Shown: in pieces, positions 1-40,903 of the stretch | Numbering within the stretch: position 1 is the first letter of the stretch | Layout of the letters: each line of letters opens with the position of its first letter | Virus record (IMG/VR): IMGVR_UViG_2778261450_000006 | Location: 1 to 41,586 of that record | Strand: one strand, 5' to 3' | Length of the DNA stretch: 41,586 nucleotides | Source: a virus | Lineage: Duplodnaviria; Heunggongvirae; Uroviricota; Caudoviricetes | The notes under the pieces: generated by a model | The model's database searches: none | Told to the model about the DNA's origin: nothing | The model's input: only the letters and a program-made list of their open reading frames with translations | Program-made: the position numbers and the translations under genes

Positions 1-1719
1 ATGATTTTTAGGGATAGCTTGAGAGTATTACCTTATGGTCGAGTAGATAATGATTTCTTCCAGATAGAAGAAAGACGTTCATGGAATGCAGGGCGATATT
101 ATTGGTCTAATAGAAGGATTTTTGGTTATATTGGAATTACTCAATCCAGTAATAAAGAGCTGAAAGATAAGTCGGGGAGAGAGGGATTCATAAGAAACCA
201 GGCTGCAAGAGAACTGAAAACTATTATATCTAATTTGTTAACTGAACTTGCTGATAGATTTTTTGGTTCACGTTCTGATGACCGTAAAGAGCTTTTAGAA
301 CAAGTTAAGCGTGAAAAAGAGTTAAGAAAATCTGCTCAACAACAAGCTCGAAAATCAACACAAAAAAGTTTTTCAGAAGCTTTGAAGAATCAGACACCAG
401 TTCTTGATGCTTCCTTGGAGGCTGTTAAAAGGCTGAAAACTAAGCTTGATAAAACTGATGGTTCGTTAGATTTAAACTATCTTAAAATTATAGACAGTGA
501 TCTTACAAACTTAGATGCGTTGCGCAGTGAAATTAAAACGCCTATCAAACCTCCAAAACTTGGAATGTATGAAGAGAAATATAGAGACTACAGAGATAAA
601 TTTAATGAGTTCTCTGCGTATATTCTACAAATGAAGTTAGCAATTAATAAACTTGATTCTGAATTAAATAAACTTGAGCCTTCATTGTCAGCGAAAAATC
701 ACCTTGAAAAAAATCAAGGTATTATTAATTCTAAACTAACTAAGTTTAATAACACGATAGAGGAGAAGATACATTCTCTTTTAAAAAAATGGGCCGATGA
801 AATAAAGGTTGATCGAAGTGATTATTATGCTAAAACTATATCAGTTGTTGATTCAATAGATAATGATTCACAAATTGAAAATGTGTTTAATTTGCTCGAT
901 AGTTTATATGTTGAGTCAGTTGATACCCTAACTTTCAAATATCAATCAATAATAAAAGGTCTCGATAGATTATTTGAAGGTATAAACTTAGATTCAGCAT
1001 TCTCATTATCTGAAGAAGAACGCTCATATTTTGAAGAAAAAGCTAAAAGTTTAAACGCGCTTGCACAGTTAGGTATTAGTGTTGAGATAATATCTCATGA
1101 ACTTGAAGAAATGGATTCTATGGTAACCAGAGGACTAAACTCTCTTCCTACTTCTGTAAAAGAACACCCTGGTTTTTCATTGGCGTTAAATGCTCACAGA
1201 TCGCTTACTCAACAAATACGTTTCTTATCACCTTTGAAAATATCAGGTTATCAATCCAGGCAGAGAATAACTGGAAAAAATATCATGGATTATGTCCTGA
1301 AGTTCTTTGGGGAGCGTTTCGAACGGCAACGAATAACTATTGAATTTAGTGAAGAGTTTAAGCAAATCGCAATAACAGATATACCATCAAGGATCTATCC
1401 TGTTTTTACTAATATTATCAACAATGCAATGTATTGGGTCAGTCTGTCAAATAATAGGCTCATAAAGATTGGTTTTGTGAATTCTTTGGTTATCATAGCA
1501 AATTCTGGTCCGGCAATTGATACCGATGATATCCCGCGACTATTTGAACTATTTTATAGCAAAAGAGCAAATGGACATGGGGTAGGTCTGTATCTATGTC
1601 GAGAAAACCTTGCTGTTGCACATCATAAAATATGGTATTCAGAACCTGATGAAGGCGATAACTATTTAATAAAAGATGGCGCTAATTTTGTGATCCAGTT
1701 CAATGGAGTGGAGTTCTAA
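1..1719 (+). CDS. Histidine-kinase-like protein (HisKA-like H-box plus GHKL ATPase domain); N-terminal ~380 aa charged and coiled-coil-like; possibly 5'-truncated by window edge
   Basis: ORF begins at base 1. C-terminal third carries H-box-like ISHELEEM, N-box FTNIINNAMYW, G1-like ANSGPAIDTDD and G2 GHGVGLYLCRENL. Stop overlaps start region of the downstream gene. AT-rich. Confidence 0.6.
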   Translation: MIFRDSLRVLPYGRVDNDFFQIEERRSWNAGRYYWSNRRIFGYIGITQSSNKELKDKSGREGFIRNQAARELKTIISNLLTELADRFFGSRSDDRKELLEQVKREKELRKSAQQQARKSTQKSFSEALKNQTPVLDASLEAVKRLKTKLDKTDGSLDLNYLKIIDSDLTNLDALRSEIKTPIKPPKLGMYEEKYRDYRDKFNEFSAYILQMKLAINKLDSELNKLEPSLSAKNHLEKNQGIINSKLTKFNNTIEEKIHSLLKKWADEIKVDRSDYYAKTISVVDSIDNDSQIENVFNLLDSLYVESVDTLTFKYQSIIKGLDRLFEGINLDSAFSLSEEERSYFEEKAKSLNALAQLGISVEIISHELEEMDSMVTRGLNSLPTSVKEHPGFSLALNAHRSLTQQIRFLSPLKISGYQSRQRITGKNIMDYVLKFFGERFERQRITIEFSEEFKQIAITDIPSRIYPVFTNIINNAMYWVSLSNNRLIKIGFVNSLVIIANSGPAIDTDDIPRLFELFYSKRANGHGVGLYLCRENLAVAHHKIWYSEPDEGDNYLIKDGANFVIQFNGVEF

Positions 1720-1720
1720 T

Positions 1721-3469
1721 ATGACAGTGGCAAATTATAATTCTCTTGTCCAGAAAACTTTCTGCGAAAATGCAATTCGTTCCGTTGTCATGATTGATGA
1801 CGATTTTCTGACGTATTCTGAATCAATCAGGGCGTTGAATAACGAAGTTGATTTAGACTACAACAAAATTGACTCATCTAAACGAGCCGCTACTCTTGAG
1901 AGCTTTTTTCAATCTAAAAATATGATTTGTGATGTTGACAATGGTTCTGTTAATTTCGATGTGGATCGGATTAGAAAATCAGATCTTATTATTGTAGATT
2001 ATCATCTTGATAATAATGCACCTGATAAAACACTTAAACTATTACAAGATTTGAAAGACTCCGATCATTTAAATATGATTGTAATATATACTAGAGAGAA
2101 TTTAGAAACGGTTTGGATGCAGATATCATCGACTCTCAAAGGTGCTCTGGATATCAACAGCTTGATCATTGACTACGATAATGAAGATGTCCAAAGTTAT
2201 TGGGAAGACGTTGTATTACCGAACTTAAATGATAATGGTAATAAAGCTCTCACAAGAGATGAAACAATAGCCTATATTAAAGACAGTAAGCCTTGTAGAA
2301 GAATTAAAAGATTAATACATGATGATGCTGTGTTGGAGGATCAAAAGGATAAAAACTTCATTGCAAAAATGATTGCAGAATATGCTGTGTCTAGAAATGC
2401 AATTATTTCTAGCAACACATCTGGCAATGTCATTCGGGGTGATGAAAGCGGAGTAAAATGGATTCAATGTGGTAATATCTTTGTCTCCCTATTTCATAAG
2501 GTTCAAGATGATCATGAAAACGATGGAGATAGGATTTGGCAAACTCTCAATGATTCTCTCATTGAATGGAAACCATCTTATTATCAGTTAATAAAATCTG
2601 AAATTCAGAATGCAATCGAAGCTGAGGCTTTATCTTTTGTAAATCATTTGGCTAACGATCATTACGGTCAAGCTGCGTGGTTAAATGAGATATTAAAATC
2701 AGACTCGCCTGATATTAGATGTAGAAATATTGACTTTGTATTTGGTAATTTATCAGAAGAGCTTTATCAAAGACTTAAAAATAATAATACGCTGGATGAA
2801 TTTATCAAAAGTGTTTTTGATAGCTATTCAAATGAATACGCTAACAGCGGAGTTGCTGCATTGCTCCAATATTGCTCTTCAAAAATGGATCTGCCATCAA
2901 ATAATGATACTTATCACGAAATGTATCATGCTTTAAATATGAATTTGTCTTCAAAGAATTTTGAAGATGGTCATATTTCTACTGGCACTATTTTCTTTGA
3001 TACAGAGTCGAACAAATGGTATTTATGTGTATCTGCGGCATGTGATTTGGTTCCTACTCAGGGTAACGACCCTCACCATGTAAGATTAAGTCCGCACAGG
3101 CTCATTAAAGTTCTGGAGCTTTTTAACGCCAGTCAGAGTAAAGCATTGCCATTTGCTGAACATTCGAAATATATATATGTAATGCATAAAAATCAAAGAA
3201 AATATCTCTCTATTTTCGAAGGGGATAAAACGCTTCCTGTTGTTGATTATATGGTGGTGTTGAATCATGGAACAACAGTTGATGGCGAAGAAAAAAATAT
3301 TATTTCTGCCGTGTTTTTAAGTAATATGGATGGCAACGTGCAAAATGTTCCTGTCCGACTCAAACTTAAATCTCAACTGAGAACTGGTTATGCAGAAAGA
3401 TATCAGGCTATAGCGTCTCAGTATAGCTCAAGGATTGGTGTGGATTATGTATCAATGATGCTACCATAA
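1721..3469 (+). CDS. Receiver (REC) domain protein with ~450-aa C-terminal domain of unknown function (candidate effector)
   Basis: ATG at 1721 preceded by GGAGTGGAG (track ORF starts 1703). N-terminus has REC-like pattern VVMIDDD ... DLIIVDYHLDN ... NMIVIYT. No HTH or other recognisable output domain. Coupled to upstream kinase-like gene. Confidence 0.6.
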   Translation: MTVANYNSLVQKTFCENAIRSVVMIDDDFLTYSESIRALNNEVDLDYNKIDSSKRAATLESFFQSKNMICDVDNGSVNFDVDRIRKSDLIIVDYHLDNNAPDKTLKLLQDLKDSDHLNMIVIYTRENLETVWMQISSTLKGALDINSLIIDYDNEDVQSYWEDVVLPNLNDNGNKALTRDETIAYIKDSKPCRRIKRLIHDDAVLEDQKDKNFIAKMIAEYAVSRNAIISSNTSGNVIRGDESGVKWIQCGNIFVSLFHKVQDDHENDGDRIWQTLNDSLIEWKPSYYQLIKSEIQNAIEAEALSFVNHLANDHYGQAAWLNEILKSDSPDIRCRNIDFVFGNLSEELYQRLKNNNTLDEFIKSVFDSYSNEYANSGVAALLQYCSSKMDLPSNNDTYHEMYHALNMNLSSKNFEDGHISTGTIFFDTESNKWYLCVSAACDLVPTQGNDPHHVRLSPHRLIKVLELFNASQSKALPFAEHSKYIYVMHKNQRKYLSIFEGDKTLPVVDYMVVLNHGTTVDGEEKNIISAVFLSNMDGNVQNVPVRLKLKSQLRTGYAERYQAIASQYSSRIGVDYVSMMLP

Positions 3470-3540
3470 TTATTATATTTTAGGCGTGGTGATTTTTTTT
3501 CGCCATGCCTATTTTATATTTATCATCACAATGATGTTGT

Positions 3541-3957
3541 TTATTTTTGTTTAAGTCTTCTAAGCTTCATGCATTCTAATGAGAATAATAATAGAGTTGT
3601 GCTGTATATAAAGCCAGAGTTAGTTAATAACTTTAAATTTAATGCTTCAGGATTTTCACTGAGAAAGTGAAAGGCATAAACTAAGTATACAGCTAAAGTA
3701 GCCGTTCCAATTGTTGGTCCAATATCGCCTTGATCATGAGGTTCAAGGTTTACATTGAACTTGAAGATTAGCCATTCAAATCCCCAAGTAAAAAAAACAA
3801 CTAATATCATGGCTGCGAATAATTTCGCGATGTTATCTGCTGATGGATTCATCAGAACAGATTGTTTCTGAAAAAATTCACAAAGTGAGAGTCCGAAAAA
3901 AATAAAAAAAAGTGGTCTGGAACTAAATTTTTCAAAAACTTTGAATAGGGTTTCCAT
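3541..3957 (-). CDS. Small multi-pass membrane protein (hypothetical)
   Basis: 138-aa ORF with several hydrophobic stretches (LFFIFFGLSL, AAMILVVFFTWGFEWLIF, TATLAVYLVYAF, FIYSTTLLLFSL). Lies directly downstream of the P4-type integrase on the same strand. Confidence 0.45.
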   Translation of the reverse strand: METLFKVFEKFSSRPLFFIFFGLSLCEFFQKQSVLMNPSADNIAKLFAAMILVVFFTWGFEWLIFKFNVNLEPHDQGDIGPTIGTATLAVYLVYAFHFLSENPEALNLKLLTNSGFIYSTTLLLFSLECMKLRRLKQK

Positions 3958-3995
3958 TTTCTTTACCTTCAGGATTATATTAGCTATTCTGATAC

Positions 3996-5225
3996 TTAGG
4001 CTACCAGAGCATTTGATCTTTGAGCTTGAACGTAATCACTCCACCATTGCATCAAACTCTGTCGCTCTATCAGATATTCTGCACGATTGTATGCTGCGAT
4101 AATTTCATCTTTTTTCGAGTGGGCAAGCGCTGCCTCAAGAACTTCAGCTCTGAATTTACCAGACTCCTCTGCCGCTGTTCGTGCAATAGAACGCATACCG
4201 TGAGCTACAAGCTCGCCTCCGAACCCCATTCGGATGATAGCTGCGTTGGCTGTTTGTTCATGCATATGATTAAGAGGCGCTTTTATGCTGGGGAAAACCC
4301 ATTCTCTATGCCCACTTATTGATTTCATTAATTCAAGGATGCGCAAAGCTTCTTTACTCAAAGGAACTTTGTGAAGCTTTTTCATTTTCATGAAATCAGC
4401 AGGAATGTTCCAAATGCTGTTGGTTGTATCAATATCAGACCACCTTGCGCGAACGGCTTCACCCGGACGAACCCATGTCAACAATTGCCATTCAATTAGC
4501 ATACGTGTTTCCAACCGGATTGACGCATTCGTCAAAGATTCCATAAACCTTGGCAATTCGCTTGGGGGAAGGGCAGGCATATTTTGCTTTTTTGGTTTAC
4601 TGAATCTTTGACCAAGGTTGTCAGCCGGGTTGAACTCAATAAGTTCTTCAGTAGCTGCCCACCGGAAGATTTCATTCAGACGTGAAATGATACGGCGTAG
4701 AGTTTCCAATACGCCTCGTTGCTCAATAGGATCAAGGTGTTGTTTTAAGAGCTTAGGTCGGATCTCATTGATAGGGACATTACCCAGACCGGGAAAGACA
4801 TTTCTCTCTAAGCTGCGCCAGATGTCTGCTGCATGGTCTTGTGAGATACCTGATGTCTTTACCTTCTCATCTAACCATTTCCGCGCTACGGCTTGGAGAG
4901 TGTGCTCAGTAGCACTCTTTAATGCCTTCGCCTTATCGTTGTTATGGATTTGGGGATCAACACCATTTGCCAGAAAGGAGAGATATTCATCACGTAAGGC
5001 TCTGGCTCTTGCAAGGGTAAGGTGAGGATATGTCCCAAGGCTCATTTTGGTTCTTTTCTTGCTCACTGGTACTGCATACCTGAAATACCAATTTTTCTTG
5101 CCTCCTTTCGCCAAAGGAGCGATTCGTAGAATCAGACCATCACCGTCAAACAAGTTGATTTCTTTATCGGCTGGCTTGGTGCTTTTGATTTCAGTGTCAG
5201 TGAGCTTCTTAGCGATTTTTGCCAT
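3996..5225 (-). CDS. intA: P4-type tyrosine integrase (IntA/CP4-57-like)
   Basis: N-terminus MAKIAKKLTDTEIKSTKPADKEINLFDGDGL and C-terminal HGMRS...AHS...AYNRAEYL..QWW motifs typical of P4-family integrases. Start chosen at the internal ATG (5223-5225) with GAGGG RBS; track ORF extends to 5267. Adjacent to the 45-bp ssrA 3' fragment. Confidence 0.85.
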   Translation of the reverse strand: MAKIAKKLTDTEIKSTKPADKEINLFDGDGLILRIAPLAKGGKKNWYFRYAVPVSKKRTKMSLGTYPHLTLARARALRDEYLSFLANGVDPQIHNNDKAKALKSATEHTLQAVARKWLDEKVKTSGISQDHAADIWRSLERNVFPGLGNVPINEIRPKLLKQHLDPIEQRGVLETLRRIISRLNEIFRWAATEELIEFNPADNLGQRFSKPKKQNMPALPPSELPRFMESLTNASIRLETRMLIEWQLLTWVRPGEAVRARWSDIDTTNSIWNIPADFMKMKKLHKVPLSKEALRILELMKSISGHREWVFPSIKAPLNHMHEQTANAAIIRMGFGGELVAHGMRSIARTAAEESGKFRAEVLEAALAHSKKDEIIAAYNRAEYLIERQSLMQWWSDYVQAQRSNALVA

Positions 5226-5390
5226 TTTGGGACCCTCGGTTTTTGGACCCTTCTTAATGGGTCCCATTCAGGGTGCCATAACTCGTAGTTCTCAGCAATT
5301 CTCACTGGACGACAATAGACGTAAAAAAGCCCGCAGAGCTTGTGCTGTGTGGGCTTAGTAGACTTCATTGAACTTCAAACAACTAAAAAG

Positions 5391-5435
5391 TGGTGGAGCT
5401 GGCGGGAGTTGAACCCGCGTCCGAAATTCCTACAT
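5391..5435. repeat. 45-bp direct repeat identical to the 3' end of ssrA (att core; prophage attR and original island att)
   Basis: tggtggagctggcgggagttgaacccgcgtccgaaattcctacat is identical to 40527-40571; flanks diverge on both sides. Confidence 0.9.
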
Positions 5436-5550: not shown

Positions 5551-6201
5551 TTATCCGCTGCTTGAGTTGAAATCTGTGGGTTTACGGAGATTAGATCTTA
5601 TGGTTTTTTCAGCGATACGAATAGTCGAAAATTTATGCAGGTTCATCAGTGCTATACAAATCCCAAGTGCAAAAAAGTAGCTGGACATTCCTAATCTTTG
5701 CATATCAGTAAGTTTATTAATTTTCTCTAAAATATGTTGGGTTACTAATCCTTCGTATACAAAAGGTATGGAAGTTATAAAACCGCCAATAAAATAGAAT
5801 GTTAAGCTTATCAGCTTTATAGATTTTCTATATATCCAAAAGCGATATCTTTTTTTTGTCCATTTAAATATTTGTTTTTCACTACTAATAGAAATTAGTT
5901 TTTGACACTTGCTATAGTTATCAATGTCATTAACTGGATCGTTAACACCTAAAAGAATCTCTCTCTGTTCTGGAGTTAGGTTCTTATCTTTTGTTATTGC
6001 AGCAATACCATAATTATATGCAACTTTCTTGATTTTGGGATCTTCAGTATTCTTATATAGATTGTATGCAAACTCGCTAATGTTTTTGCGCGAGTTGAAA
6101 ATCTTATCTTTGGGGAAAACCCAGCCGGATCTTACCGCGAGCATCTGTATGATCGGGGTAATTATCGCGACAGAATACTTAATTATCTCGTTTATGTTCA
6201 T
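5551..6201 (-). CDS. AT-rich cargo protein with C-terminal transmembrane segments (hypothetical; moron between attR and int)
   Basis: 216-aa ORF, lysine-rich and AT-rich, hydrophobic segments LISLTFYFIGGFITSIPFVY and MSSYFFALGICIALM. Not part of the canonical P2/186 gene set at this position. Confidence 0.5.
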   Translation of the reverse strand: MNINEIIKYSVAIITPIIQMLAVRSGWVFPKDKIFNSRKNISEFAYNLYKNTEDPKIKKVAYNYGIAAITKDKNLTPEQREILLGVNDPVNDIDNYSKCQKLISISSEKQIFKWTKKRYRFWIYRKSIKLISLTFYFIGGFITSIPFVYEGLVTQHILEKINKLTDMQRLGMSSYFFALGICIALMNLHKFSTIRIAEKTIRSNLRKPTDFNSSSG

Positions 6202-6215
6202 GATCCATTGTTTAC

Positions 6216-7232
6216 TTAAATTAAGTTATAAAGAGGGTTTTTTGTTACTGCATCCTCCAGGTGGTCTGGAGAGAAGTGTGCATAAATCATCGTCATTTTA
6301 ATATCTGAGTGCCCTAAAATATCACGTAAAACGAGTATGTTCCCACCGTTCATCATAAAATGGCTGGCAAATGTATGGCGCAGGACGTGGGTGCATTGGC
6401 CTTCCGGTAGTTCAATACCGGCCCGTTTTACCGCCCGTTCAAAGGCTTTTCTGCATGGTGTGAATAATTTCCCTCGGTTTTTGGGTAGCTCGTTGTACAG
6501 ATCCTGAGATATCGGTACGGTACGGTTTTTTTTACCCTTGGTCTTTGTATAGGTAATCCGGTATTTCGATAGTTGATGGCCCTGCAGGTTTTCAGCTTCA
6601 CTCCAACGAGCACCGGTTGCTAGGCATATTTTTGCAATCATTAGCAGACTGGGGCTTTGAGAATCAGCACAGGCATCCAGCAGACGTTTAATTTCCTCCG
6701 GGGTTAGGAACGCCAGTTCACCCTCCGTAATTTTAAATGTTGGAAGCCCGGCAAGCGGGTTGGGGGCTGACCAGTGGCCCAGCTTTTTCAGTGTACCAAA
6801 AACAGATGATAGGTTGCGCTGTTCAAGGTTTACCGTGCGGGGCTTAACGGGTGACATGAACGAGCCGTCTTCATTTTGGACCTCCCCCTTTAATCTGGCT
6901 TCCCGATATTTTGTGAAATCACCTGCTGTCAGCTCAGAGGCGATGGGATCGCCTAGACCATTACAGATAATTCTAAGTTTCGCCATCAGGCGTTTGGGGT
7001 CTGCGAGTGTTTGACCATATAGGGAATACCACTGCTCAATCACTTCTGATAATCGCCGCCGATCTTCCTTCTCACCAAGCCATGGCTTTTTGTTTACTTC
7101 GTTCATGGTGAAGTTTTCGAATGCTATGGCTTCGCCTTTCGTGGCAAATTGCTTACGCACGCGCTTGCCATTGCGTCCATTGGGATAGCACTCACACAAC
7201 CATTTTCCGTTCGGCTGTTTTCTGATGGTCAT
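6216..7232 (-). CDS. int: P2/186-family tyrosine integrase
   Basis: 338 aa; GRNGKRVRKQF...AFE N-terminus and C-terminal LATGARWSEA ... HVLRHTFASHFMMNGG ... LGHSDIKMTMIYAHF catalytic region, as in P2 Int. Confidence 0.9.
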   Translation of the reverse strand: MTIRKQPNGKWLCECYPNGRNGKRVRKQFATKGEAIAFENFTMNEVNKKPWLGEKEDRRRLSEVIEQWYSLYGQTLADPKRLMAKLRIICNGLGDPIASELTAGDFTKYREARLKGEVQNEDGSFMSPVKPRTVNLEQRNLSSVFGTLKKLGHWSAPNPLAGLPTFKITEGELAFLTPEEIKRLLDACADSQSPSLLMIAKICLATGARWSEAENLQGHQLSKYRITYTKTKGKKNRTVPISQDLYNELPKNRGKLFTPCRKAFERAVKRAGIELPEGQCTHVLRHTFASHFMMNGGNILVLRDILGHSDIKMTMIYAHFSPDHLEDAVTKNPLYNLI

Positions 7233-13777: not shown

Positions 13778-13966
13778 ATGCAGGACTATTTTTTGGAGTC
13801 TTTGAAGCTCCAGCGCATTGATTTTTTTCTTAAGCTTGTAGCGGCTAGTGAGTGTAGTGATGAAGAGAAGGGGCTGGCCCTGCAGTGGGTTTCTGAACTG
13901 ACAGATGAACTCATGGCAAAAATCAGAACCCACGAATACAACCGCTCAATGGATGTCATCAGCTGA
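13778..13966 (+). CDS. Small SOS-controlled protein, candidate Tum-like antirepressor N-terminal module
   Basis: 62-aa ORF with AGGAGG RBS directly downstream of the LexA box; position corresponds to 186 tum. Confidence 0.45.
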   Translation: MQDYFLESLKLQRIDFFLKLVAASECSDEEKGLALQWVSELTDELMAKIRTHEYNRSMDVIS

Positions 13967-13976
13967 GGTGACTTTT

Positions 13977-14210
13977 ATGCGCATTGAAATAATGATCGAT
14001 AAAGAGCAGAAGATTAGCCAGTCTACCCTGGACGCTCTGGAGTCAGAGCTTTACCGCAACCTGCAACCCATCTATCCCAAGACAGCTATCCGCATCCGTA
14101 AAGGGTCGGCAAACGGCGTTGAGCTGAGTGGCTTAAAGCTTGATGAAGACAAAAAGCGGGTGATGGAAATTATGCAGCAGGTTTGGGAAGACGACAGCTG
14201 GCTGCACTAA
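13977..14210 (+). CDS. dinI: DinI-family protein
   Basis: MRIEIMIDKEQKISQSTLDALESEL...EDKKRVMEIMQQVWEDDSW resembles E. coli DinI; ATG 13977 with GAGGTG RBS (track ORF starts 13905). Confidence 0.75.
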   Translation: MRIEIMIDKEQKISQSTLDALESELYRNLQPIYPKTAIRIRKGSANGVELSGLKLDEDKKRVMEIMQQVWEDDSWLH

Positions 14211-15535: not shown

Positions 15536-16450
15536 ATGCCATACCAATTGGTAGAGCTTAGCCCCGTAGCTAACGATCTTGAACAGTTAGGAACCAAAGA
15601 GAAGTTTTGGTTCTATTTCTCCGATGACACTGTAAATTTGCAGTTGTTTAAGTACTCTAGGCCAGGTACTGGCGAGCATTGGTCTGAAAAGTGTGCTGCT
15701 GAGTTATGTCATTTGCTTAACATTCCACATGCTAGCTATGATTTGGCGCGATACAATGGTCGATTCGGTGTGGTGACTCAGAATATCATTCCATCTGGTT
15801 TCCGGATGGTAATGGGAAATGAAGTGCTTCACAGTTCGACATTCGATTATCCTGGGCCTTTACAAGCCGGGGAAAAGCCGGTAAGGGTCAGAGAACACAC
15901 TGTCACAAGGGTATTGGGTTGTTTGGATAGGGAATCTATCAAGCCTCCTCCGAGTGTATATGATCTAACCGGGCTAAATGCAGCAGATGTATTTTGTGGA
16001 TATTTGATGCTCGATGCACTTGTGAGTAATCAAGATCGCCATCATGAAAATTGGGCGATCATGCTTAACAATGAAACTGGTGAGCAGTTTTTGTGTCCAA
16101 CATACGATCATGCCGCTAGTTTAGGAAGGGAGATGTTAGATGATGAGCGTAACGAACGGCTTAATACTAAAGATAAAAATCGACAAATCCCATGTTTTGT
16201 AAGAAAAGCTCGCTCTGAGCTATTCAAAGCAAAAACTGATAAAAAGCCCTTGCTGACCGTTGAAGCATTTCAACATGCAGTTGAAGGGAGAGTTGCCGCT
16301 CGCGACCATTGGTTAGGTAAGTTGAGCGTTTTAACAGAAGATTCCATTACAGATGTGTTTAACCAAGTGCCTTCATCGTGTATATCCGACAGTGCACGTA
16401 GATTTGCAACGTTAATGGTAATGGAAAATCGCAGAAGGTTACTAGAATGA
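15536..16450 (+). CDS. HipA-like serine/threonine kinase core (lacks HipA N-terminal subdomain)
   Basis: P-loop-like GTKEKF near N-terminus and catalytic motif LDALVSNQDRHHENWAIM matching the HipA D-x-H-x-x-N region; YDHAASLG follows. AT-rich leader. Confidence 0.7.
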   Translation: MPYQLVELSPVANDLEQLGTKEKFWFYFSDDTVNLQLFKYSRPGTGEHWSEKCAAELCHLLNIPHASYDLARYNGRFGVVTQNIIPSGFRMVMGNEVLHSSTFDYPGPLQAGEKPVRVREHTVTRVLGCLDRESIKPPPSVYDLTGLNAADVFCGYLMLDALVSNQDRHHENWAIMLNNETGEQFLCPTYDHAASLGREMLDDERNERLNTKDKNRQIPCFVRKARSELFKAKTDKKPLLTVEAFQHAVEGRVAARDHWLGKLSVLTEDSITDVFNQVPSSCISDSARRFATLMVMENRRRLLE

Positions 16451-17187
16451 CTAATACAAACTCCGTTTACGTCGCATGGCAGGCACCAGATACCAGAGAC
16501 TGGCATGTTGTTGGTAACTTGCAAGAGCGCAAATCGGGGTATGTTTTCAGGTATACCAAAGGTGCTCTTAAATCTACTAAATTTACAAAGTTTAGCGGCA
16601 TGAGTGATGTTCGTGAAACTTATGTTTCGGAAGAATTGTTTCCTCTTTTTAAAAATCGCCTTTTATCACCGAGACGTCCAGAGTATCCGAGTTTCATTAA
16701 ATGGCTTGGATTTGAAGAAGATAAGGTAAATCCTATCGATATTCTTGCTCGCTCGGGAGGCTTACGAAGCACTGATCAGCTGCAGATTTTCAAAAAAATT
16801 GATGTTGATTCTGATGGTAACTTTGAGCATTTTTTCTTCTTACATGGACTTGGTTACTTAAATAGCTTAGCTAATGCTCGTGTATCTGAATTGAAACCGG
16901 GGCAAATTTTGCGTCTTTGCTTGGATCTTCAAAATGAATACGATGGGGATGCTGTTGTCGTTCGTGCAGATAAACCAGCTGAAATCGTTGGTTACTGCCC
17001 TAGGTATTTAAGTAATGATATCAAGAAGATGTTATTGGATGATCCAAAATCAATCACTTTAACGGTCGAAAAGATTAGCGATGATGCTCCTCATAACTAT
17101 CGGTTATTATGTAAATTATCAGGAGTACTAAGCCAAGCCTGTCAATCGACGCTGATTCCTCAGGATGAGTTTGAACCTATTGAGTAA
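16447..17187 (+). CDS. HIRAN-domain protein with N-terminal HipA-N/HipS-like region
   Basis: C-terminal LKPGQILRLCLDLQNEYDGDAVVVRADKPAEIVGYCPRYL matches the HIRAN signature; start overlaps kinase stop (ATGA). Confidence 0.65.
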   Translation: MTNTNSVYVAWQAPDTRDWHVVGNLQERKSGYVFRYTKGALKSTKFTKFSGMSDVRETYVSEELFPLFKNRLLSPRRPEYPSFIKWLGFEEDKVNPIDILARSGGLRSTDQLQIFKKIDVDSDGNFEHFFFLHGLGYLNSLANARVSELKPGQILRLCLDLQNEYDGDAVVVRADKPAEIVGYCPRYLSNDIKKMLLDDPKSITLTVEKISDDAPHNYRLLCKLSGVLSQACQSTLIPQDEFEPIE

Positions 17188-24766: not shown

Positions 24767-25160
24767 AGCAGTGCCTTATGTCCGCAATAACCCGGACAAA
24801 CTGCATCTGTTTGTGGATAACGGTTCGCTGGTTGCCACGGGGGCCAGCTCCATGTCATGGGAGTACCGTTATACCCTCAACGTGGTGATTGAGGATTTCA
24901 GCGGCGACCAGAATCTGCTGATGGCCCCGGTTTTGCTGTGGCTGCGTGATAACCAGCCCGATGCCATCAATAACCCGGCGTTACGGGAAAAACTATTCAC
25001 CTTTGAGGTGGATATTTTGCGCAACGATGTCTGTGATATCAGCCTTAACCTGCAACTGACGGAGCGTGTGCTGGTCAGCACTGACGGCAGTGTGTCGAGT
25101 GTTGAAGCGGTAGCGGAACCCGATGAACCTGAAGAAATGTGGACGGTGAAACGTGGCTGA
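24729..25160 (+). CDS. R: Tail completion protein R (P2 gpR family)
   Basis: GTG 24729 preceded by AGGAG (track ORF starts at TTG 24708). Confidence 0.8.
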   Translation: MNKPQSLRHALNKAVPYVRNNPDKLHLFVDNGSLVATGASSMSWEYRYTLNVVIEDFSGDQNLLMAPVLLWLRDNQPDAINNPALREKLFTFEVDILRNDVCDISLNLQLTERVLVSTDGSVSSVEAVAEPDEPEEMWTVKRG

Positions 25161-25599
25161 ACTGCAGAAGGTGGACGATTGGCTGAGTGCTTTGCTGGCG
25201 AATCTGGAACCAGCCGCAAGAAGCCGCATGATGCGCCAGCTGGCGCAGGAACTGCGCCGGACACAGCAGCAGAATATCAGAATGCAGCGCAATCCAGATG
25301 GCAGCAGTTATGAACCTCGACGGGTAACAGCACGCAGTAAAAAGGGGCGCATCAAACGTCAGATGTTTGCAAAGCTGCGCACCACAAAATACCTGAAAAC
25401 TGCCGCCAGCGCCGACTCTGCCAGCGTACAGTTTGAAGGTAAGGTGCAGCGTATTGCCCGTGTTCACCATTACGGCCTGCGCGATCGTGTAAGCCGCCGG
25501 GGGCCAGAGGTACGTTATGCGGAGCGGCTGTTACTAGGTTTTACTTCATCTGACAAAGATGAAATTGCATCTGTCGTTTATAAATGGCTAAGGCCTTAA
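25153..25599 (+). CDS. S: Tail completion protein S (P2 gpS family)
   Basis: 148 aa, GTG start overlapping R stop. Confidence 0.85.
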   Translation: MAELQKVDDWLSALLANLEPAARSRMMRQLAQELRRTQQQNIRMQRNPDGSSYEPRRVTARSKKGRIKRQMFAKLRTTKYLKTAASADSASVQFEGKVQRIARVHHYGLRDRVSRRGPEVRYAERLLLGFTSSDKDEIASVVYKWLRP

Positions 25600-25613
25600 T
25601 TCCTTCGTTATAT

Positions 25614-26600
25614 TTACTCTTTGTAAATTCGATCTGGCTCGTTGTACTCTATTTCTCTCAGTCGACCATTTTTAATGGTGAAATTACCTTTTTCTGATTT
25701 AAATTCCCCACCACATTTACAAGGCTTGTTATCAGAAAGAGTGTAGTTTTTTAGTATTAGTTCATCATCGTTGTCAAAGGTGGGGATTATTTTTTTAGTT
25801 TCAGCGCATTGCGTGCACTTAACTTGCAATTCCGGGAGTGTGGTACAAGCTGTAAGGCTCAGTTCGACATTCTCTGGAACAATGTAATATCCTAGCAATG
25901 GTGTCCCACGACTTTCTGAAACACCTTTGTATGTATTGGTTATGCCTCCAATAAATGCAAGGATTTCATCATACGCTTGAGTATTACGCATTGTTACCCA
26001 GCAATCTCGATCTTCATAACTATACTCACGACCTGCAACGCAAATTGCTGTAACGTAACGAAAGTCTTCTTTGTATATTTTTTTATACCTTTCGGCTTCA
26101 GTAATTCCATTTGGTGATAAGTCACTACTTAGAGCAAATATTACCGAGCGAAGTTTCTCTATTTTGTGTTGGATTAGTTTGCCTGATTCATCTTTTATTC
26201 CAGGTAAGTAACCGAATTTCTCATTAAGTTCTTTTGCACTTGAGTGTGCAGAGCTGAGTTCCGATGAACTTAATGTGGTTTTTACCTCAATGGTATATAG
26301 AACTGATTCTATTGGGAATAACCCTGTGGCACCATCGATTAATATCGGAGGGAGTATTGATTTATTGTAAATAATAATATCTATTTGAGGTGATAACTTT
26401 CCTGAATACTGTTCAATGATTTGCCCTGTGCCAATGCCAACATCTGCGGGCAAAAGAGGTCGAAATAGTTGACTTAATAATATTTCTAGAACAGCTCCCT
26501 TAACACCCTGGTGGGAAAATCCTGCAGCACTTTTGGCTTGAGCAATCGCCGATTCGACCTTCCCTCTAAGTAAAGCCTGATACTGGTTCTTATTTTTCAT
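25614..26600 (-). CDS. Cargo protein: PD-(D/E)xK-like nuclease fold with C-terminal zinc-ribbon (candidate anti-phage defence gene)
   Basis: 328-aa antisense ORF between S and V, strongly AT-rich against a GC-rich late operon. Motifs PQIDIIIYN ... ESVLYTIEVKT (D ... E-x-K) and C-terminal CTQCAETKK ... CKCGG cysteine cluster. Confidence 0.6.
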   Translation of the reverse strand: MKNKNQYQALLRGKVESAIAQAKSAAGFSHQGVKGAVLEILLSQLFRPLLPADVGIGTGQIIEQYSGKLSPQIDIIIYNKSILPPILIDGATGLFPIESVLYTIEVKTTLSSSELSSAHSSAKELNEKFGYLPGIKDESGKLIQHKIEKLRSVIFALSSDLSPNGITEAERYKKIYKEDFRYVTAICVAGREYSYEDRDCWVTMRNTQAYDEILAFIGGITNTYKGVSESRGTPLLGYYIVPENVELSLTACTTLPELQVKCTQCAETKKIIPTFDNDDELILKNYTLSDNKPCKCGGEFKSEKGNFTIKNGRLREIEYNEPDRIYKE

Positions 26601-26714
26601 GTTTGTTTCTCAACCAAGTAGTTAACAATTTTTATATAGTAATTCTTAATTGTGTCATGGACCAGACTAAGCTCACCTTGTTCTTAGATACATCATTCAT
26701 GGCAATCTATAGCT

Positions 26715-27293
26715 ATGAACGCACAACTCACAGAAATCATGCGCCTTATCACCAACCTAATCCGCACCGGAACTGTAACGGAAGTGGACCGGGACAACTG
26801 GCTGTGCCGGGTGAAAACGGGTGAGCTTGAAACCAACTGGATTAACTGGCTGACGCTGCGCGCGGGCAACTCGCGCACCTGGTGGAAACCGTCTGTGGGG
26901 GAGCAGGTTGTGCTGTTCAGCCTGGGCGGCAATCTGGAAACCGCCTTTGCCCTGCCTGCCGTCTATTCAAACCAGTTTCCGCCGCCGTCCAAGTCTGAGG
27001 ACGGCAACGTGACGGAATACCCAGACGGCGGTTGGTTTGAGTACGACCCCGAAACCGGGCGCTGGTACGTTCGGGGTATTAAATCCATGGTGATCGAGGC
27101 GGTGGATAACGTCACCTTCAAAACCGGGGAGTTTATCGTGGAAGCCGACACCACCCGTATTAACAGTGAGGTGGTGATCAACGGTGGTGTGACTCAGGGC
27201 GGCGGCCCGATGAGTTCCAACGAGATCGTGGTGGATGACCACGCGCACAATAAAGTGAAGTCTGGCGGCGACACATCGGGAGGCCCGGTATGA
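26715..27293 (+). CDS. V: Baseplate spike/assembly protein V (P2 gpV family)
   Basis: 192 aa, first gene of baseplate block V-W-J-I. Confidence 0.9.
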   Translation: MNAQLTEIMRLITNLIRTGTVTEVDRDNWLCRVKTGELETNWINWLTLRAGNSRTWWKPSVGEQVVLFSLGGNLETAFALPAVYSNQFPPPSKSEDGNVTEYPDGGWFEYDPETGRWYVRGIKSMVIEAVDNVTFKTGEFIVEADTTRINSEVVINGGVTQGGGPMSSNEIVVDDHAHNKVKSGGDTSGGPV

Positions 27294-30644: not shown

Positions 30645-31237
30645 TGAAACCTGTTTTTGATGAAAATGGGCTGGCTACAGTGCCGGGCGATATGCGTTGT
30701 TTTTATTATGATGCTGAAACATCTGAGTATACGGGCTGGTCTGATGAATATATTAATACTGGCGTAAGTATGCCCGCCTGTTCCACTGGTATTGACCCTG
30801 GCGAAAACATTCCGGGAAAAGTGGCAGTATTTACGGGTAAGGGATGGAGCCATGAAGAAGACCATCGCAATGAGACTGTTTACTCAACAGAAAATGGCGC
30901 AGCTGTTACAGTGGATTATATCGGTGCCATCAAAGACGGTTATGTCACGCTTTCACCGTTAACGCCATACGATAAATGGGATGGTGAGAAATGGGTGACG
31001 GATACCGAGGCACAGCATAGCGCCGCAGTAGACGCGGCAGAAGCACAACGTCAGTCACTGATTGATACTGTAATGGCTTCCATTAGTCTGATTCAACTGA
31101 AATTGCAGGCCGGACGGAAACTGACGCAGGCAGAAACAACCCGACTTAACGCCGTGCTGGATTACATTGACGCGGTGACGGTAACAGATACCAGCACCGC
31201 GCCGGATATCATCTGGCCTGAACTGCCGGAGGCGTAG
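30644..31237 (+). CDS. G: Tail fibre assembly protein (P2 gpG/Tfa family), currently expressed copy
   Basis: 197 aa directly after H; C-terminal motif LDYIDAVTVTDTSTAPDIIWPELP shared with the inverted copy. Confidence 0.8.
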   Translation: MKPVFDENGLATVPGDMRCFYYDAETSEYTGWSDEYINTGVSMPACSTGIDPGENIPGKVAVFTGKGWSHEEDHRNETVYSTENGAAVTVDYIGAIKDGYVTLSPLTPYDKWDGEKWVTDTEAQHSAAVDAAEAQRQSLIDTVMASISLIQLKLQAGRKLTQAETTRLNAVLDYIDAVTVTDTSTAPDIIWPELPEA

Positions 31238-31628
31238 GCCATTCAATATCTGGCGCACTGGAAGTATCGACCAGCTCCAGTGCGTCCAGATAATCCAGCC
31301 ACAAATTATATTGCGCCAGTTCCTCACCTTTCAGACGACCAATAGCCGCTTTACCAGGCCATTGCCTGCTGTTCATGTGCTCGTTGGCTTCATTAATAAG
31401 TTTTCCTTTTTTCAACTCTGCCAATGCAATAAGGTTTTCTTTTGATAAAGGTGGTTGCTCTGTCAAAACCGGATATCCCTCCTGATTGCTGACTATTTTC
31501 ATGCCATTATCCTGACCATCCAGTAGTGACAGCCATTCATCCGTGGTTATCTCAACAGCATCTGAAGGTGCTTTATTTAAATCGGTAAAAAAACCATTTT
31601 CTTTTTGTGAATAGAAGTATCTGTCCAT
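31209..31628 (-). CDS. Alternative tail fibre assembly protein (inverted copy)
   Basis: 139 aa on opposite strand; C-terminus LWLDYLDALELVDTSSAPDIEWPTP parallels the + strand Tfa; 3' ends overlap convergently. Confidence 0.75.
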   Translation of the reverse strand: MDRYFYSQKENGFFTDLNKAPSDAVEITTDEWLSLLDGQDNGMKIVSNQEGYPVLTEQPPLSKENLIALAELKKGKLINEANEHMNSRQWPGKAAIGRLKGEELAQYNLWLDYLDALELVDTSSAPDIEWPTPPAVQAR

Positions 31629-31631
31629 TTA

Positions 31632-31991
31632 TCAATCTCCAAAAGCAATCCAGTAAGCAAAAGGATTTATTCCTTGCTCAGTCACAGATGACATCAGGGA
31701 AAATTGCGATGGTGAAACAGGTAATGCTGCAAAACTAACCATTGTTGACACACCTGACCGTGCATTATCGTACGATGCAACAACACAATAATTGGTATTG
31801 CTGAAAGATATCGGCAGGGTGATATTTACAGGTGAGCCTAATGGCCCTGATGCTGATATTCCCATTTGAATGATGGTTCCATCAGGCAATTTTCTCCAGC
31901 GATTAGAACTCGGATTTCTTTTCCAGGCTGACATATCCGGTATCTGATTTTCTCCTGTGCCTACATCCCTTTTCGCCGCTTCTCCCAAACC
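31632..31991 (-). CDS. Alternative tail-fibre C-terminal cassette (promoterless; fused to H constant region after inversion)
   Basis: Minus-strand frame reads ...GLGEAAKRDVGTGENQIPDMSAWKRN... from the crossover site. No independent start expected; the Met in the track ORF (to 32033) lies beyond the site. Confidence 0.6.
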   Translation of the reverse strand, partial: GLGEAAKRDVGTGENQIPDMSAWKRNPSSNRWRKLPDGTIIQMGISASGPLGSPVNITLPISFSNTNYCVVASYDNARSGVSTMVSFAALPVSPSQFSLMSSVTEQGINPFAYWIAFGD

Positions 31992-32005
31992 AACGTTTAT
32001 GAAAA
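31980..32005. repeat. Invertase crossover site (inverted partner of 30175-30200)
   Basis: ttctcccaaacc-AA-cgtttatgaaaa; reverse complement shares ttggtttgggagaa with the H-internal site. Confidence 0.6.
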
Positions 32006-32060
32006 TGCAGAGATAACGGCTAACTGGCATCATCTCCGGTTTTTATTCAGGGGGATGATC

Positions 32061-32627
32061 ATGCTTATTGGCTATGTACGCGTGTCAACAAATGACCAGA
32101 ACACCGATTTGCAACGTAATGCACTGAACTGCGCGGGATGTGAGCGGATTTTTGAGGATAAAATCAGTGGCACTAAGTCCGACAGACCGGGGCTGAAAAA
32201 GCTGCTCAGGACACTATCGGCAGGAGACACGCTGGTTGTCTGGAAGCTGGACAGGTTGGGGCGCAGTATGCGGCATCTTGTTACGCTGATAGAGGAGTTG
32301 CGCCAGCGTGGTGTGAATTTCCGAAGCCTGACTGACAGTATTGATACCAGTACCCCAATGGGCCGTTTCTTTTTTCATGTCATGGGTGCCCTGGCTGAAA
32401 TGGAACGCGAACTGATAGTTGAACGTACCAGGGCAGGGCTGGCTGCAGCTCGTGCCAAAGGCAGAGTAGGTGGACGCCGTCCTAAGTTGACCACCGAACA
32501 GTGGGCACAGATTGGGCGTTTACTCGAGGCCGGAGAATCAAGACAGCGTATTGCACTGATTTTTGATGTGGGTGTTTCCACAATTTATAGAAAATTTCCG
32601 GCAAATAAGAGTAATGAATCCCCCTGA
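32061..32627 (+). CDS. Serine DNA invertase (Hin/Gin/Cin/Pin family)
   Basis: MLIGYVRVSTNDQNTDLQ with catalytic Ser in YVRVST, resolvase core and C-terminal HTH (GVSTIYRKF). ATG 32061 with GGGGG RBS (track ORF starts 32055). Confidence 0.9.
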   Translation: MLIGYVRVSTNDQNTDLQRNALNCAGCERIFEDKISGTKSDRPGLKKLLRTLSAGDTLVVWKLDRLGRSMRHLVTLIEELRQRGVNFRSLTDSIDTSTPMGRFFFHVMGALAEMERELIVERTRAGLAAARAKGRVGGRRPKLTTEQWAQIGRLLEAGESRQRIALIFDVGVSTIYRKFPANKSNESP

Positions 32628-40526: not shown

Positions 40527-40571
40527 TGGTGGAGCTGGCGGGAGTTGAACCCGCGTCCGAAATTCCTACAT
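40527..40571. repeat. 45-bp att core (3' end of ssrA), direct repeat of 5391-5435
   Basis: Exact 45/45 identity; it is the 3'-terminal 45 nt of the tmRNA gene. Confidence 0.9.
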
Positions 40572-40767
40572 CCTCGGTACTACATGCTTAGTCAGTCTTT
40601 ACATTCGCTTGCCAGCTGCGGACGGACACGCCACTAACAAACTAGCCTGATTAAGTTTTAACGCTTCAACCCCAGGCAGGGCTTCCACGCGATCTCTTTT
40701 GGGTTTGACCTCTCTTGATCCCCGTCCTAAGAGCGGAGGCTAGGGAGAGAGGGCTCTAAGCAGGTTA

Positions 40768-40800
40768 TTAAGCTGCTAAAGCGTAGTTTTCGTCGTTTGC
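40768..40800 (-). other. tmRNA tag-peptide reading frame (ANDENYALAA, stop)
   Basis: Minus-strand GCA AAC GAC GAA AAC TAC GCT TTA GCA GCT TAA inside ssrA. Confidence 0.9.
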
Positions 40801-40903
40801 GACTATTTTTTGCGGCTTTTTACGAGGCCAACCGCCCCTCGGCATGCACCTTGGGTTTCGCAAATCCCGTCGAATCCAGAATCAGCCCCAATGTGTAAAG
40901 GTA

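What the first reader, a model, noticed from the sequence alone, without database searches (positions are those of the whole stretch)
25600..26714. Antisense AT-rich cargo gene between tail genes S and V encoding a PD-(D/E)xK-like protein with a zinc-ribbon tail
A 328-aa gene is inserted tail-to-tail 15 bp after gpS, antisense to the GC-rich late operon and strongly AT-rich. It carries a plausible PD-(D/E)xK nuclease core (IDIIIYN ... ESVLYTIEVK) and a C-terminal cysteine cluster (CTQCAETKK ... CKCGG). From memory the S/V junction is a known moron site in P2-like phages. No good TGT-N12-ACA late-promoter element remains upstream of V (best is TGT-N12-ACT at 26651-26668), suggesting the insertion changed V operon control.
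Basis: partly seen in the sequence, partly recalled or inferred. Interest (0 to 1): 0.75.

Follow-up and report, generated by a model that had tools for sequence, protein, structure and literature searches.

The report
Prophage-carried stand-alone NucC-like nuclease
A P2-like prophage carries, between tail genes S and V, a foreign gene for a DNA-cutting enzyme that has the fold of the bacterial immune nuclease NucC but lacks two of NucC's signal-binding residues and has a zinc-ribbon tail, so it is most likely a one-gene anti-phage weapon whose trigger is unknown.

Summary
A 328-aa ORF (25614..26600, minus strand, 38% GC against 56% in the flanks) lies tail-to-tail 14 bp after gpS, antisense to the late genes of an apparently complete P2-like prophage integrated at ssrA.

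Relatives 60-64% identical occupy the same S/V slot in Kluyvera, metagenomes and 12 of 14 IMG/VR contigs. An intact copy also survives in a decayed prophage remnant in Enterobacter hormaechei. In P2 and five other phages the slot holds unrelated AT-rich antisense genes.

The closest validated precedent is Damona, a single-gene DUF6602 defence. The best reading is a stand-alone defence nuclease, a new variant of a known kind.

The TGT-N12-ACT element sits 55.5 bp upstream of the V ATG, exactly where relatives have a perfect site.

The parts
25614..26600 (-). Cargo gene: a 328-aa stand-alone NucC-like (DUF6602) PD-(D/E)xK nuclease with a C-terminal zinc ribbon
25881..26600 (-). NucC-like nuclease core, aa 1-240. 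Catalytic I73-D74 ... E105-V-K107 has the same x30 spacing as NucC IDx30EAK.
25617..25880 (-). C-terminal all-beta domain, aa 241-328, with four cysteines (C262, C265, C294, C296). Predicted zinc ribbon, function unknown, proposed sensor or regulator.
25527..26698 (.). Variable cassette relative to insert-free relatives: 1172 bp replacing 125 bp. It includes the last ~24 codons of S, the cargo gene and the V promoter region.
   Evidence: blastn against Klebsiella phage 4LV2017: homology ends at 25526 and resumes at 26699. The S C-terminal ~20 aa differ with each cargo allele.
26651..26668 (+). Late-promoter (P_V) activator-binding site, TGT-N12-ACT, with one mismatch in the right half-site
   Evidence: Centred 55.5 bp upstream of the V ATG, the same position as the perfect TGT-N12-ACA sites in 4LV2017, L012 and L017. 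The P2 annotation places its activator site ~55 bp upstream of the V start.
26631..26658 (-). Candidate sigma-70 promoter of the cargo gene: ATGACA, 16 nt, TATAAA. The -10 ends 30 nt before the ATG. The -35 overlaps the activator site.
   Evidence: My own consensus scan, 10 of 12 matches. The tool's stricter scan did not report it. This is a prediction only.
25153..25599 (+). gpS (tail completion), the left flank. Its last ~24 codons belong to the AT-rich variable segment.
   Evidence: ORF. Pfam Phage_tail_S on the identical Salmonella locus. Boundary.
26715..27293 (+). gpV (baseplate spike), the right flank and first gene of the V operon
   Evidence: ORF. Pfam Phage_base_V on the identical Salmonella locus.

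Best explanation
This is a single-gene anti-phage defence (superinfection-exclusion or abortive-infection) nuclease. It is carried as cargo in the one-gene S/V slot of a P2-like prophage.

Shown here:
- The protein has the complete NucC fold and an intact ID-x30-E-x-K catalytic site.
- It carries an extra C-terminal four-cysteine domain.
- It has no conserved partner gene.
- It is a rare, AT-rich, horizontally moving accessory gene that keeps turning up in this slot.

Inferred:
- It is expressed in the lysogen from its own promoter, divergent from P_V.
- It rests as an inactive NucC-like trimer.
- On infection by another phage, two trimers assemble and bring active sites together to cut double-stranded DNA with little sequence specificity, as in NucC.
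- The switch is not cyclic tri-AMP. Two cA3-contacting residues are replaced (R53 to invariant Asp, Y81 to Ile) and no cyclase is nearby.
- The trigger is instead sensed directly, either through the zinc-ribbon domain or through the remodelled pocket.
- During the prophage's own lytic growth, late transcription from the O operon reads into the gene antisense (no terminator was found after S), and activator binding overlaps the gene's putative -35. Together these would turn it down.

For: Sequence: phmmer and hmmsearch hit four NucC structures, at 4e-7 and 7e-12. PADLOC hits PD_DExK and NucC.

Catalytic and cysteine conservation.

No partner: there is no recurrent neighbouring protein family in 23 loci. 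No cyclase or Cas10 appears in the Pfam-annotated contexts. The cassette holds no other ORF or Rfam RNA.

Accessory and mobile:
- 0 of 50,697 phage records carry a full-length homologue.
- 3 of 5,426 E. coli complete genomes carry it.
- 22 loci were found among 185,579 species representatives, spread over several phyla.
- GC is 38% against 56% in the flanks.

Same slot: alleles 60-64% identical lie between S and V in Kluyvera, in metagenomes and in 12 of 14 IMG/VR contigs. A Janthinobacterium P2-like prophage whose S and V are only 45% and 33% identical also carries a relative there.

Retention after prophage decay: E. hormaechei keeps an intact 326-aa copy, with the P_V promoter and 36 bp of V, inside a heavily deleted P2 remnant. 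That protein is indexed in 779 blocks of the collection.

The slot carries defence-like cargo elsewhere: SEN8 has an FRG protein there that matches PADLOC candidate PDC-S15.

Precedent: Damona, a single-gene DUF6602 cassette also matched by the Cas PD_DExK and CBASS small-endonuclease profiles, protects against phages and is reported mostly in prophages (bioRxiv 10.1101/2024.07.02.601686).
Against: There is no experimental phenotype for this protein or its subfamily. It did not match any complete defence system in PADLOC 2.0, only effector-type profiles. Homology to the actual Damona protein could not be tested. A motif scan of species representatives returned no Vibrio cholerae locus, so Damona is at best a distant relative. 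Trimer or hexamer assembly, DNA cleavage and the trigger are all inferred. The cargo promoter is a consensus match that is not seen in the other alleles. A constitutively expressed non-specific nuclease needs tight control, and I cannot show where that control comes from.
Confidence: 0.6

Rival explanations
1. It is an orphan cA3-responsive NucC effector. The prophage supplies only the nuclease, which is switched on by cyclic tri-AMP made by a CBASS or type III CRISPR system elsewhere in the host genome.
For: The whole NucC fold, including the embellishments that build the allosteric pocket, is retained. The four segments that form the pocket in NucC correspond by position to strongly conserved stretches here: residue 53, 82-85, 129-145 and 222-239.
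Against: R53 and Y81 are each essential for cA3 activation of NucC and are kept in all four solved NucCs. Here they are replaced by an invariant Asp and a nearly invariant Ile. No cyclase lies near any of the loci examined. The gene travels alone between hosts on phages, so it cannot rely on the recipient having a cA3 source.
Confidence: 0.07
2. It serves the phage itself: either a nuclease used in the P2-like phage's own cycle (host DNA degradation, recombination or processing) or a counter-defence factor, not immunity for the lysogen.
For: It lies inside the late region of a phage. Some phage nucleases degrade host DNA or immune signals. A Janthinobacterium relative is co-directional with the late genes.
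Against: It is absent from nearly all P2-like phages, so it is not needed for growth. In enterobacterial phages it is antisense to the late operon. Most family members lie outside phages, next to toxin-antitoxin genes or in islands. It stays intact in a dead prophage remnant.
Confidence: 0.12
3. It is a solitary sequence-specific restriction endonuclease or a selfish toxin-like nuclease, kept by addiction and not by immunity.
Confidence: 0.08
4. It is non-functional cargo: a decaying moron with no current role.
For: It is rare (3 of 5,426 E. coli genomes). No strong promoter or terminator was detected by the tool's scan.
Against: The full-length ORF is preserved at 50-70% identity across classes of bacteria, with 43 invariant positions that include the catalytic residues. 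The four cysteines are invariant in the full-length forms. The gene is intact where the flanking phage genes have been deleted.
Confidence: 0.05

Closest known systems
NucC (CBASS / type III CRISPR cA3-activated endonuclease; PDB 6p7p, 6q1h, 6uxf, 7zgv)
Damona (single-gene DUF6602 defence from the Vibrio cholerae chromosomal integron; Darracq et al., bioRxiv 10.1101/2024.07.02.601686)
   Same: Both are single-gene systems with a DUF6602 domain. Both are matched by the Cas PD_DExK and CBASS small-endonuclease (NucC) profiles. Damona homologues are reported to occur preferentially in prophages.
   Different: No V. cholerae locus carried this subfamily's conserved motifs. Most members of the wider family are ~240-aa cores without the zinc ribbon, so Damona may be one of those. 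In that paper Damona's prophage homologues are reported from Acinetobacter, and it does not mention P2-like phages.
P2 Orf30 and other S/V-slot morons of P2-like phages
   Same: The position is the same (between S and V). Each is a single, AT-rich gene antisense to the late genes, with the P_V activator site kept on the V side.
   Different: There is no sequence similarity to Orf30 (BLASTP E 0.72). Orf30 and three of the other five cargo proteins match nothing in Pfam or PADLOC. SEN8's is an FRG / PDC-S15 protein, and ST512's has only a marginal PADLOC hit (E 0.007, Type I specificity subunit).
Type II restriction endonucleases of the NgoMIV / SgrAI / Bse634I group
   Different: There is no methyltransferase partner. 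The match is much weaker than to NucC. The NucC-specific additions are present.

Membership tests
NucC (cA3-activated CBASS / type III CRISPR effector) | Restriction-endonuclease-like fold with the NucC-specific embellishments | tested here: met
NucC (cA3-activated CBASS / type III CRISPR effector) | Active-site motif ID-x30-E-A-K (D73, E104, K106 in E. coli NucC) | tested here: met
   I73-D74, then 30 residues, then E105-V106-K107. D74, E105 and K107 are invariant in 51 homologues.
NucC (cA3-activated CBASS / type III CRISPR effector) | cA3-binding residues R53 and Y81, each essential for activation | tested here: not met
   HMMER alignments to four NucC structures place D53 (invariant) opposite R53 and I82 (at least 90% conserved) opposite Y81. 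All four NucCs keep R and Y.
NucC (cA3-activated CBASS / type III CRISPR effector) | cA3-binding T226/V227 and the gate-loop latch H136/Y141 | not testable with these tools
   Sequence alignments stop at about residue 133, and residue-level structural superposition was not available. A conserved loop (F129, Y131, G134, H145) and a conserved 222-239 segment exist at the corresponding positions.
NucC (cA3-activated CBASS / type III CRISPR effector) | Encoded next to a CD-NTase or a Cas10 cyclase | tested here: not met
   The neighbours in the prophage are tail genes. No cyclase appears in the Pfam-annotated contexts. No recurrent neighbouring family appears in 23 loci.
NucC (cA3-activated CBASS / type III CRISPR effector) | Homotrimer that hexamerises on activation | not testable with these tools
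   Only single-chain prediction was available.
Damona (single-gene DUF6602 defence) | DUF6602 domain, also matched by the Cas PD_DExK and CBASS small-endonuclease profiles | tested here: met
   Pfam PF20247 at 77 bits against a cut-off of 27. PADLOC PD_DExK 6.6e-32 and NucC 7e-14.
Damona (single-gene DUF6602 defence) | Acts as a single gene | tested here: met
   Genomic evidence only: there is no conserved neighbour and no other ORF in the cassette.
Damona (single-gene DUF6602 defence) | Sequence homology to the V. cholerae Damona protein or the DefenseFinder Damona profile | not testable with these tools
   The sequence is not in the held text or supplement. The scan of species representatives with this subfamily's motifs returned no V. 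cholerae locus.
Damona (single-gene DUF6602 defence) | Demonstrated anti-phage phenotype | not testable with these tools
   This needs an experiment.
P2-like phage S/V (orf30) cargo slot | Non-essential gene between S and V, upstream of a retained P_V activator site | tested here: met
   Position. Absent from the closest phages. Activator-like site at the canonical 55.5-bp position. Six other phages carry other cargo there.
Type II restriction-modification | Cognate methyltransferase adjacent | tested here: not met
   None in the window cassette or in any homologous locus.

The most novel reading that the evidence does not exclude
This would be a NucC-fold nuclease that has given up cyclic-oligonucleotide control and become a self-contained sensor-effector. 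There are two versions. In the first, the zinc-ribbon domain recognises a phage protein or DNA structure directly and licenses trimer-to-hexamer assembly. In the second, the remodelled and still strongly conserved pocket (D53, I82/P84/P85, F129/Y131/H145, N222/Y224/R231) binds a different, so far unknown small-molecule signal. The swapping of C-terminal modules across the wider family (none, zinc ribbon, or helical extension) would then be a set of alternative triggers on one effector core. The P2 S/V slot would be a one-gene immunity locus comparable to the old/tin and Z/fun hotspots.
Probability: 0.2. Interest if true: 0.8.

Novelty: new variant of a known kind. Interest (0 to 1): 0.55.

Why it matters
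NucC is the textbook case of an immune nuclease switched on by a cyclic trinucleotide. Here the same fold and active site travel alone on a phage, with two of the signal-binding residues replaced and a zinc-ribbon module added. The HMM search found more than 4,500 sequence clusters of relatives, most of them the ~240-aa core alone. Finding what activates this version would show how an effector can be uncoupled from second-messenger signalling and re-wired to another trigger.

It would also establish the S/V junction of P2-like phages as a one-gene immunity slot. The current defence-hotspot literature only touches on that site. Its cargo includes P2 Orf30, which is still of unknown function. 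The experiments are simple: clone one gene, challenge with a phage panel, and mutate D74, K107 and the cysteines.

Tried and rejected
1. Relation to P2 Orf30, which occupies the same slot: none (BLASTP E 0.72, no Pfam hit).
2. A partner gene, cyclase, methyltransferase or antitoxin: none in the cassette and no recurrent neighbour in 23 loci.
3. An RNA element or antisense RNA: the only Rfam hit is a chance-level rliB match (E 0.14, 21.7 bits against a gathering score of 40).
4. A terminator between S and the cargo gene: none found.
6. Viral structural relatives in BFVD: none at E of 0.001 or better.
7. Full-length homologues in deposited phage genomes: none. Two Klebsiella phages have a 98-residue partial match at 37% identity.
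8. Recovering the Damona sequence: not in the preprint text or its held supplement. No V. cholerae locus came out of the genome scan. The supplement of the 2026 NAR paper on P2/P4 defence is not held.
9. The afdb50 fold library was not available.
10. NCBIfam gave no family. PHROGs gave only a weak family of unknown function.

Full report
**Observation**

The window holds a P2-like prophage bounded by 45-bp direct repeats at 5391-5435 and 40527-40571. The right-hand repeat is the 3' end of the tmRNA gene ssrA at 40527-40889. The gene order is the usual one: int, C, A, Q, P, O, N, M, L, lysis genes, R, S, V, W, J, I, H, G, FI, FII, T, U, D. Names for the O-to-H region come from the Pfam-annotated identical Salmonella locus.

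Between S (25153..25599) and V (26715..27293) lies a 328-aa ORF on the opposite strand, 25614..26600. GC falls to 0.36-0.42 across 25450-26800, against 0.52-0.60 on both sides. The gene is 38% GC against 56% in its flanks.

**Borders of the insert**

Klebsiella phage 4LV2017 and about 40 similar phage records match the S and V flanks at 83-89% identity but lack the insert. Homology ends at 25526 and resumes at 26699. So 1172 bp here replace 125 bp there. The variable segment therefore includes the last ~24 codons of S and the whole promoter region of V, not only the ORF. The C-terminal ~20 residues of gpS differ with each cargo allele.

**What the protein is**

- Pfam places aa 25-126 in DUF6602 (77 bits, cut-off 27).
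- PADLOC matches the CRISPR-associated PD_DExK profile (7e-32) and two NucC profiles (7e-14).
- Sequence searches of the PDB find only NucC, from four species (4e-7 with the single sequence, 7e-12 with a family profile).
- An AlphaFold model built on 51 homologues is confident (pLDDT 87, pTM 0.84).

Residues 1-240 are therefore a complete NucC-like core, not merely a generic PD-(D/E)xK domain. NucC's catalytic motif is ID-x30-EAK, with D73, E104 and K106 (bioRxiv 10.1101/694703). Here it is I73-D74, thirty residues, then E105-V-K107. D74, E105 and K107 are invariant in all 51 aligned homologues.

**Where it departs from NucC**

NucC is activated when cyclic tri-AMP binds a pocket on the trimer axis. 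Mutating R53, Y81, T226, or the gate-loop residues H136 or Y141 abolishes activation. In every HMMER alignment to the four solved NucCs, R53 faces D53 of this family (invariant) and Y81 faces I82 (at least 90% conserved). All four NucCs keep the Arg and the Tyr. I could not align T226/V227 or the gate loop at residue level.

No cyclase is nearby. In the prophage the neighbours are tail genes. In Marinomonas and Paraburkholderia the neighbours are toxin-antitoxin and unrelated genes. An all-against-all comparison of flanking ORFs in 23 loci found no recurrent neighbouring family. The cassette itself holds no second plausible ORF and no Rfam RNA. This is a stand-alone gene, and the cA3 membership test fails on two defining features.

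**The C-terminal domain**

The domain is dispensable for the fold. Forms of 252 aa that end just after the core occupy the same S/V slot in other prophages. A profile search of 1.84 billion representative proteins found 4,533 clusters at E up to 0.001, and 251 at E up to 1e-30. Most of the listed relatives below the top dozen are 235-255 aa cores without a ribbon. A few carry a different C-terminal extension that looks helical from its sequence. The module at the C-terminus thus varies on a constant nuclease core. That is what one expects of a regulatory or sensing part; this is inference.

**Distribution**

- The identical protein is in Salmonella enterica, in the same prophage position.
- The identical 1172-bp cassette is in 3 of 5,426 complete E. 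coli genomes, annotated only as 'DUF6602 domain-containing protein'.
- No deposited phage genome (50,697 records) has a full-length homologue.
- BFVD has no structural match.
- Alleles only 60-64% identical sit in the same slot in a Kluyvera prophage, in metagenomic prophages and in 12 of 14 IMG/VR contigs that carry a relative.
- A Janthinobacterium P2-like prophage whose S and V are only 45% and 33% identical also has a relative between S and V, there co-directional with the late genes.
- Elsewhere the family is sparse and patchy: 22 loci among 185,579 species representatives, across Gamma-, Beta-, Alpha- and Epsilonproteobacteria, Desulfobacteraceae, a Planctomycetota MAG and a Bacillota MAG.
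- In Enterobacter hormaechei an intact 326-aa copy lies next to ssrA in a heavily deleted P2-like remnant. It keeps the V promoter and the first 36 bp of V on one side, and fragments of the terminase and gpA genes further on. S and the rest of the late genes are gone. That protein is indexed in 779 blocks of the collection.

Survival of the cargo gene in a dead prophage argues that it benefits the host.

**The slot**

P2 itself has the non-essential Orf30, antisense, between a terminator after S and the P_V activator site. Orf30 is unrelated to this protein. Salmonella phages SEN8 and RE-2010, Escherichia phage Cartapus, and Klebsiella phages ST437-OXA245phi4.1 and ST512-KPC3phi13.2 each carry a different antisense gene there (ST512 also has a short 51-aa annotated ORF on the sense strand). 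These genes are 32-38% GC against flanks of 53-58%. SEN8's gene is an FRG-domain protein matching the PADLOC candidate PDC-S15. ST512's has only a marginal PADLOC hit (E 0.007). The other three match nothing.

The literature treats the A-Q (old/tin) and Z/fun sites as the main P2 defence hotspots (bioRxiv 10.1101/2024.10.15.618418). A 2026 survey adds 'a hotspot within the tail genes', downstream of GpL, holding 16% of P2 systems (PMC13586616). The S/V slot is thus known as a moron site, but its cargo is essentially uncharacterised.

**The V promoter**

That count is no more than chance. But the TGT-N12-ACT at 26651-26668 is centred 55.5 bp upstream of the V ATG. Perfect sites occupy exactly that position in 4LV2017 (no insert), in the Kluyvera prophage and in a metagenomic prophage that carry other alleles. 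P2's annotated activator site is also about 55 bp upstream of its V start.

The cassette therefore brings a P_V promoter of normal geometry with one substitution in one half-site. The prophage looks complete, and the same cassette is found in several hosts. I see no evidence that V control was changed. Whether the substitution weakens activation is untested.

**Expression of the cargo gene (inference only)**

On the minus strand, ATGACA-16 nt-TATAAA (26658..26631) matches the sigma-70 consensus at 10 of 12 positions, and the -10 ends 30 nt before the ATG. The tool's stricter scan did not list it, and the other alleles show no equally good match. Its -35 lies inside the activator site. No terminator-like hairpin separates S from the cargo gene. 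Late transcripts from the O operon would therefore run antisense through the gene. Both features would lower expression during the prophage's own lytic growth, but neither is shown.

**Known precedent**

The only paper in the library that mentions DUF6602 describes Damona. It is a single-gene cassette of the Vibrio cholerae chromosomal integron that reduces phage plating. It carries DUF6602, is also matched by the Cas PD_DExK and CBASS small-endonuclease profiles, and has homologues found preferentially in prophages (bioRxiv 10.1101/2024.07.02.601686). That is the same profile signature as here.

I could not obtain the Damona sequence. The genome scan with this subfamily's two most conserved motifs returned no V. 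cholerae locus. Membership in Damona proper is therefore untested. At most this protein is a distinct, zinc-ribbon-bearing branch of the same broad family.

**Verdict**

The most likely function is a one-gene anti-phage nuclease expressed by the lysogen. It probably works like NucC at the catalytic end (oligomerisation-dependent, largely non-specific dsDNA cleavage) but uses a trigger other than cA3 (confidence about 0.6).

Rivals, in order:
- a role in the phage's own cycle or in counter-defence (0.12);
- a solitary restriction-like or addictive nuclease (0.08);
- an orphan cA3 effector (0.07);
- dead cargo (0.05).

It is a new variant of a known kind. The fold, the catalytic chemistry, single-gene DUF6602 defence and the moron slot are all known. 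New here are the combination of the NucC fold with two replaced cA3 contacts and an added zinc ribbon, the gene's repeated association with the P2 S/V slot, and the open question of what switches it on.

Noticed in passing
window 15536-17187 (+): The classical P2 A-Q (old/tin) hotspot of the same prophage holds a two-gene candidate defence system. The first is a 304-aa protein matching PADLOC PDC-M03A (2e-122, with a weak HipA_C kinase hit). The second is a 246-aa protein matching PDC-M03B (3e-93, HIRAN domain). A DinI-like gene lies at 13905-14210. This prophage therefore carries at least two separate putative immunity cargos.
   Followed up: partly
window 1-5390: A second AT-rich element (32-35% GC) is integrated in tandem at ssrA, to the left of the prophage. 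It has its own tyrosine integrase (3996..5267, minus strand). It also has two large genes with the conflict-system domains HEF_HK + HATPase_c (1..1719, cut by the window edge) and Response_reg_2 PF19192 (1703..3469). Neither matches PADLOC.
   Followed up: partly
window 5551-6201 (-): A 216-aa ORF with no Pfam or PADLOC match lies between the left att repeat (5391-5435) and the prophage integrase (6216..7232). The 2026 NAR survey lists this att-int interval as a minor P2 defence hotspot.
   Followed up: no
L006 5851-6000 and 7050-11075 (Enterobacter hormaechei, GCA_051194655.1): The E. hormaechei homologue sits in a decayed P2-like remnant next to ssrA. It retains the P_V activator site (TGTGTGGCTGGAGGTACA) and 36 bp of V upstream of the cargo gene. 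Collinear fragments of the terminase and gpA genes follow, and the tail and head genes are deleted. This is a clear case of a prophage cargo gene outliving its phage.
   Followed up: partly
L032 2842-6055 (Janthinobacterium kumbetense): A very divergent P2-like prophage of a betaproteobacterium (S 45% and V 33% identical) carries a relative (51% identity) in the same S/V slot. There it lies on the same strand as the late genes, unlike all the enterobacterial cases.
   Followed up: no
L020 4308-4925 (metagenomic prophage with the 252-aa short form): In the prophages that carry the short form without the zinc ribbon, gene V is called as two pieces (68 aa and 123 aa). This suggests a disrupted baseplate gene and possibly a defective prophage. 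My V-start coordinate for this locus was therefore unreliable.
   Followed up: no
window 31209-32627: After tail-fibre genes H and G there is a stretch of lower GC (45-51%). It holds two minus-strand ORFs (31209..31628 and 31632..32033) and a 190-aa plus-strand ORF (32055..32627). In the identical Salmonella locus this corresponds to tail-fibre-assembly fragments next to a resolvase/invertase, which suggests an invertible host-range segment.
   Followed up: no
L002 1240-1267 (phage P2): P2's own annotated P_V activator site is not a perfect TGT-N12-ACA either. The spacing reads as N11 or N14 around TGTTGTCTGGTAGTTCTACA. Imperfect P_V sites therefore exist in a fully functional phage.
   Followed up: partly
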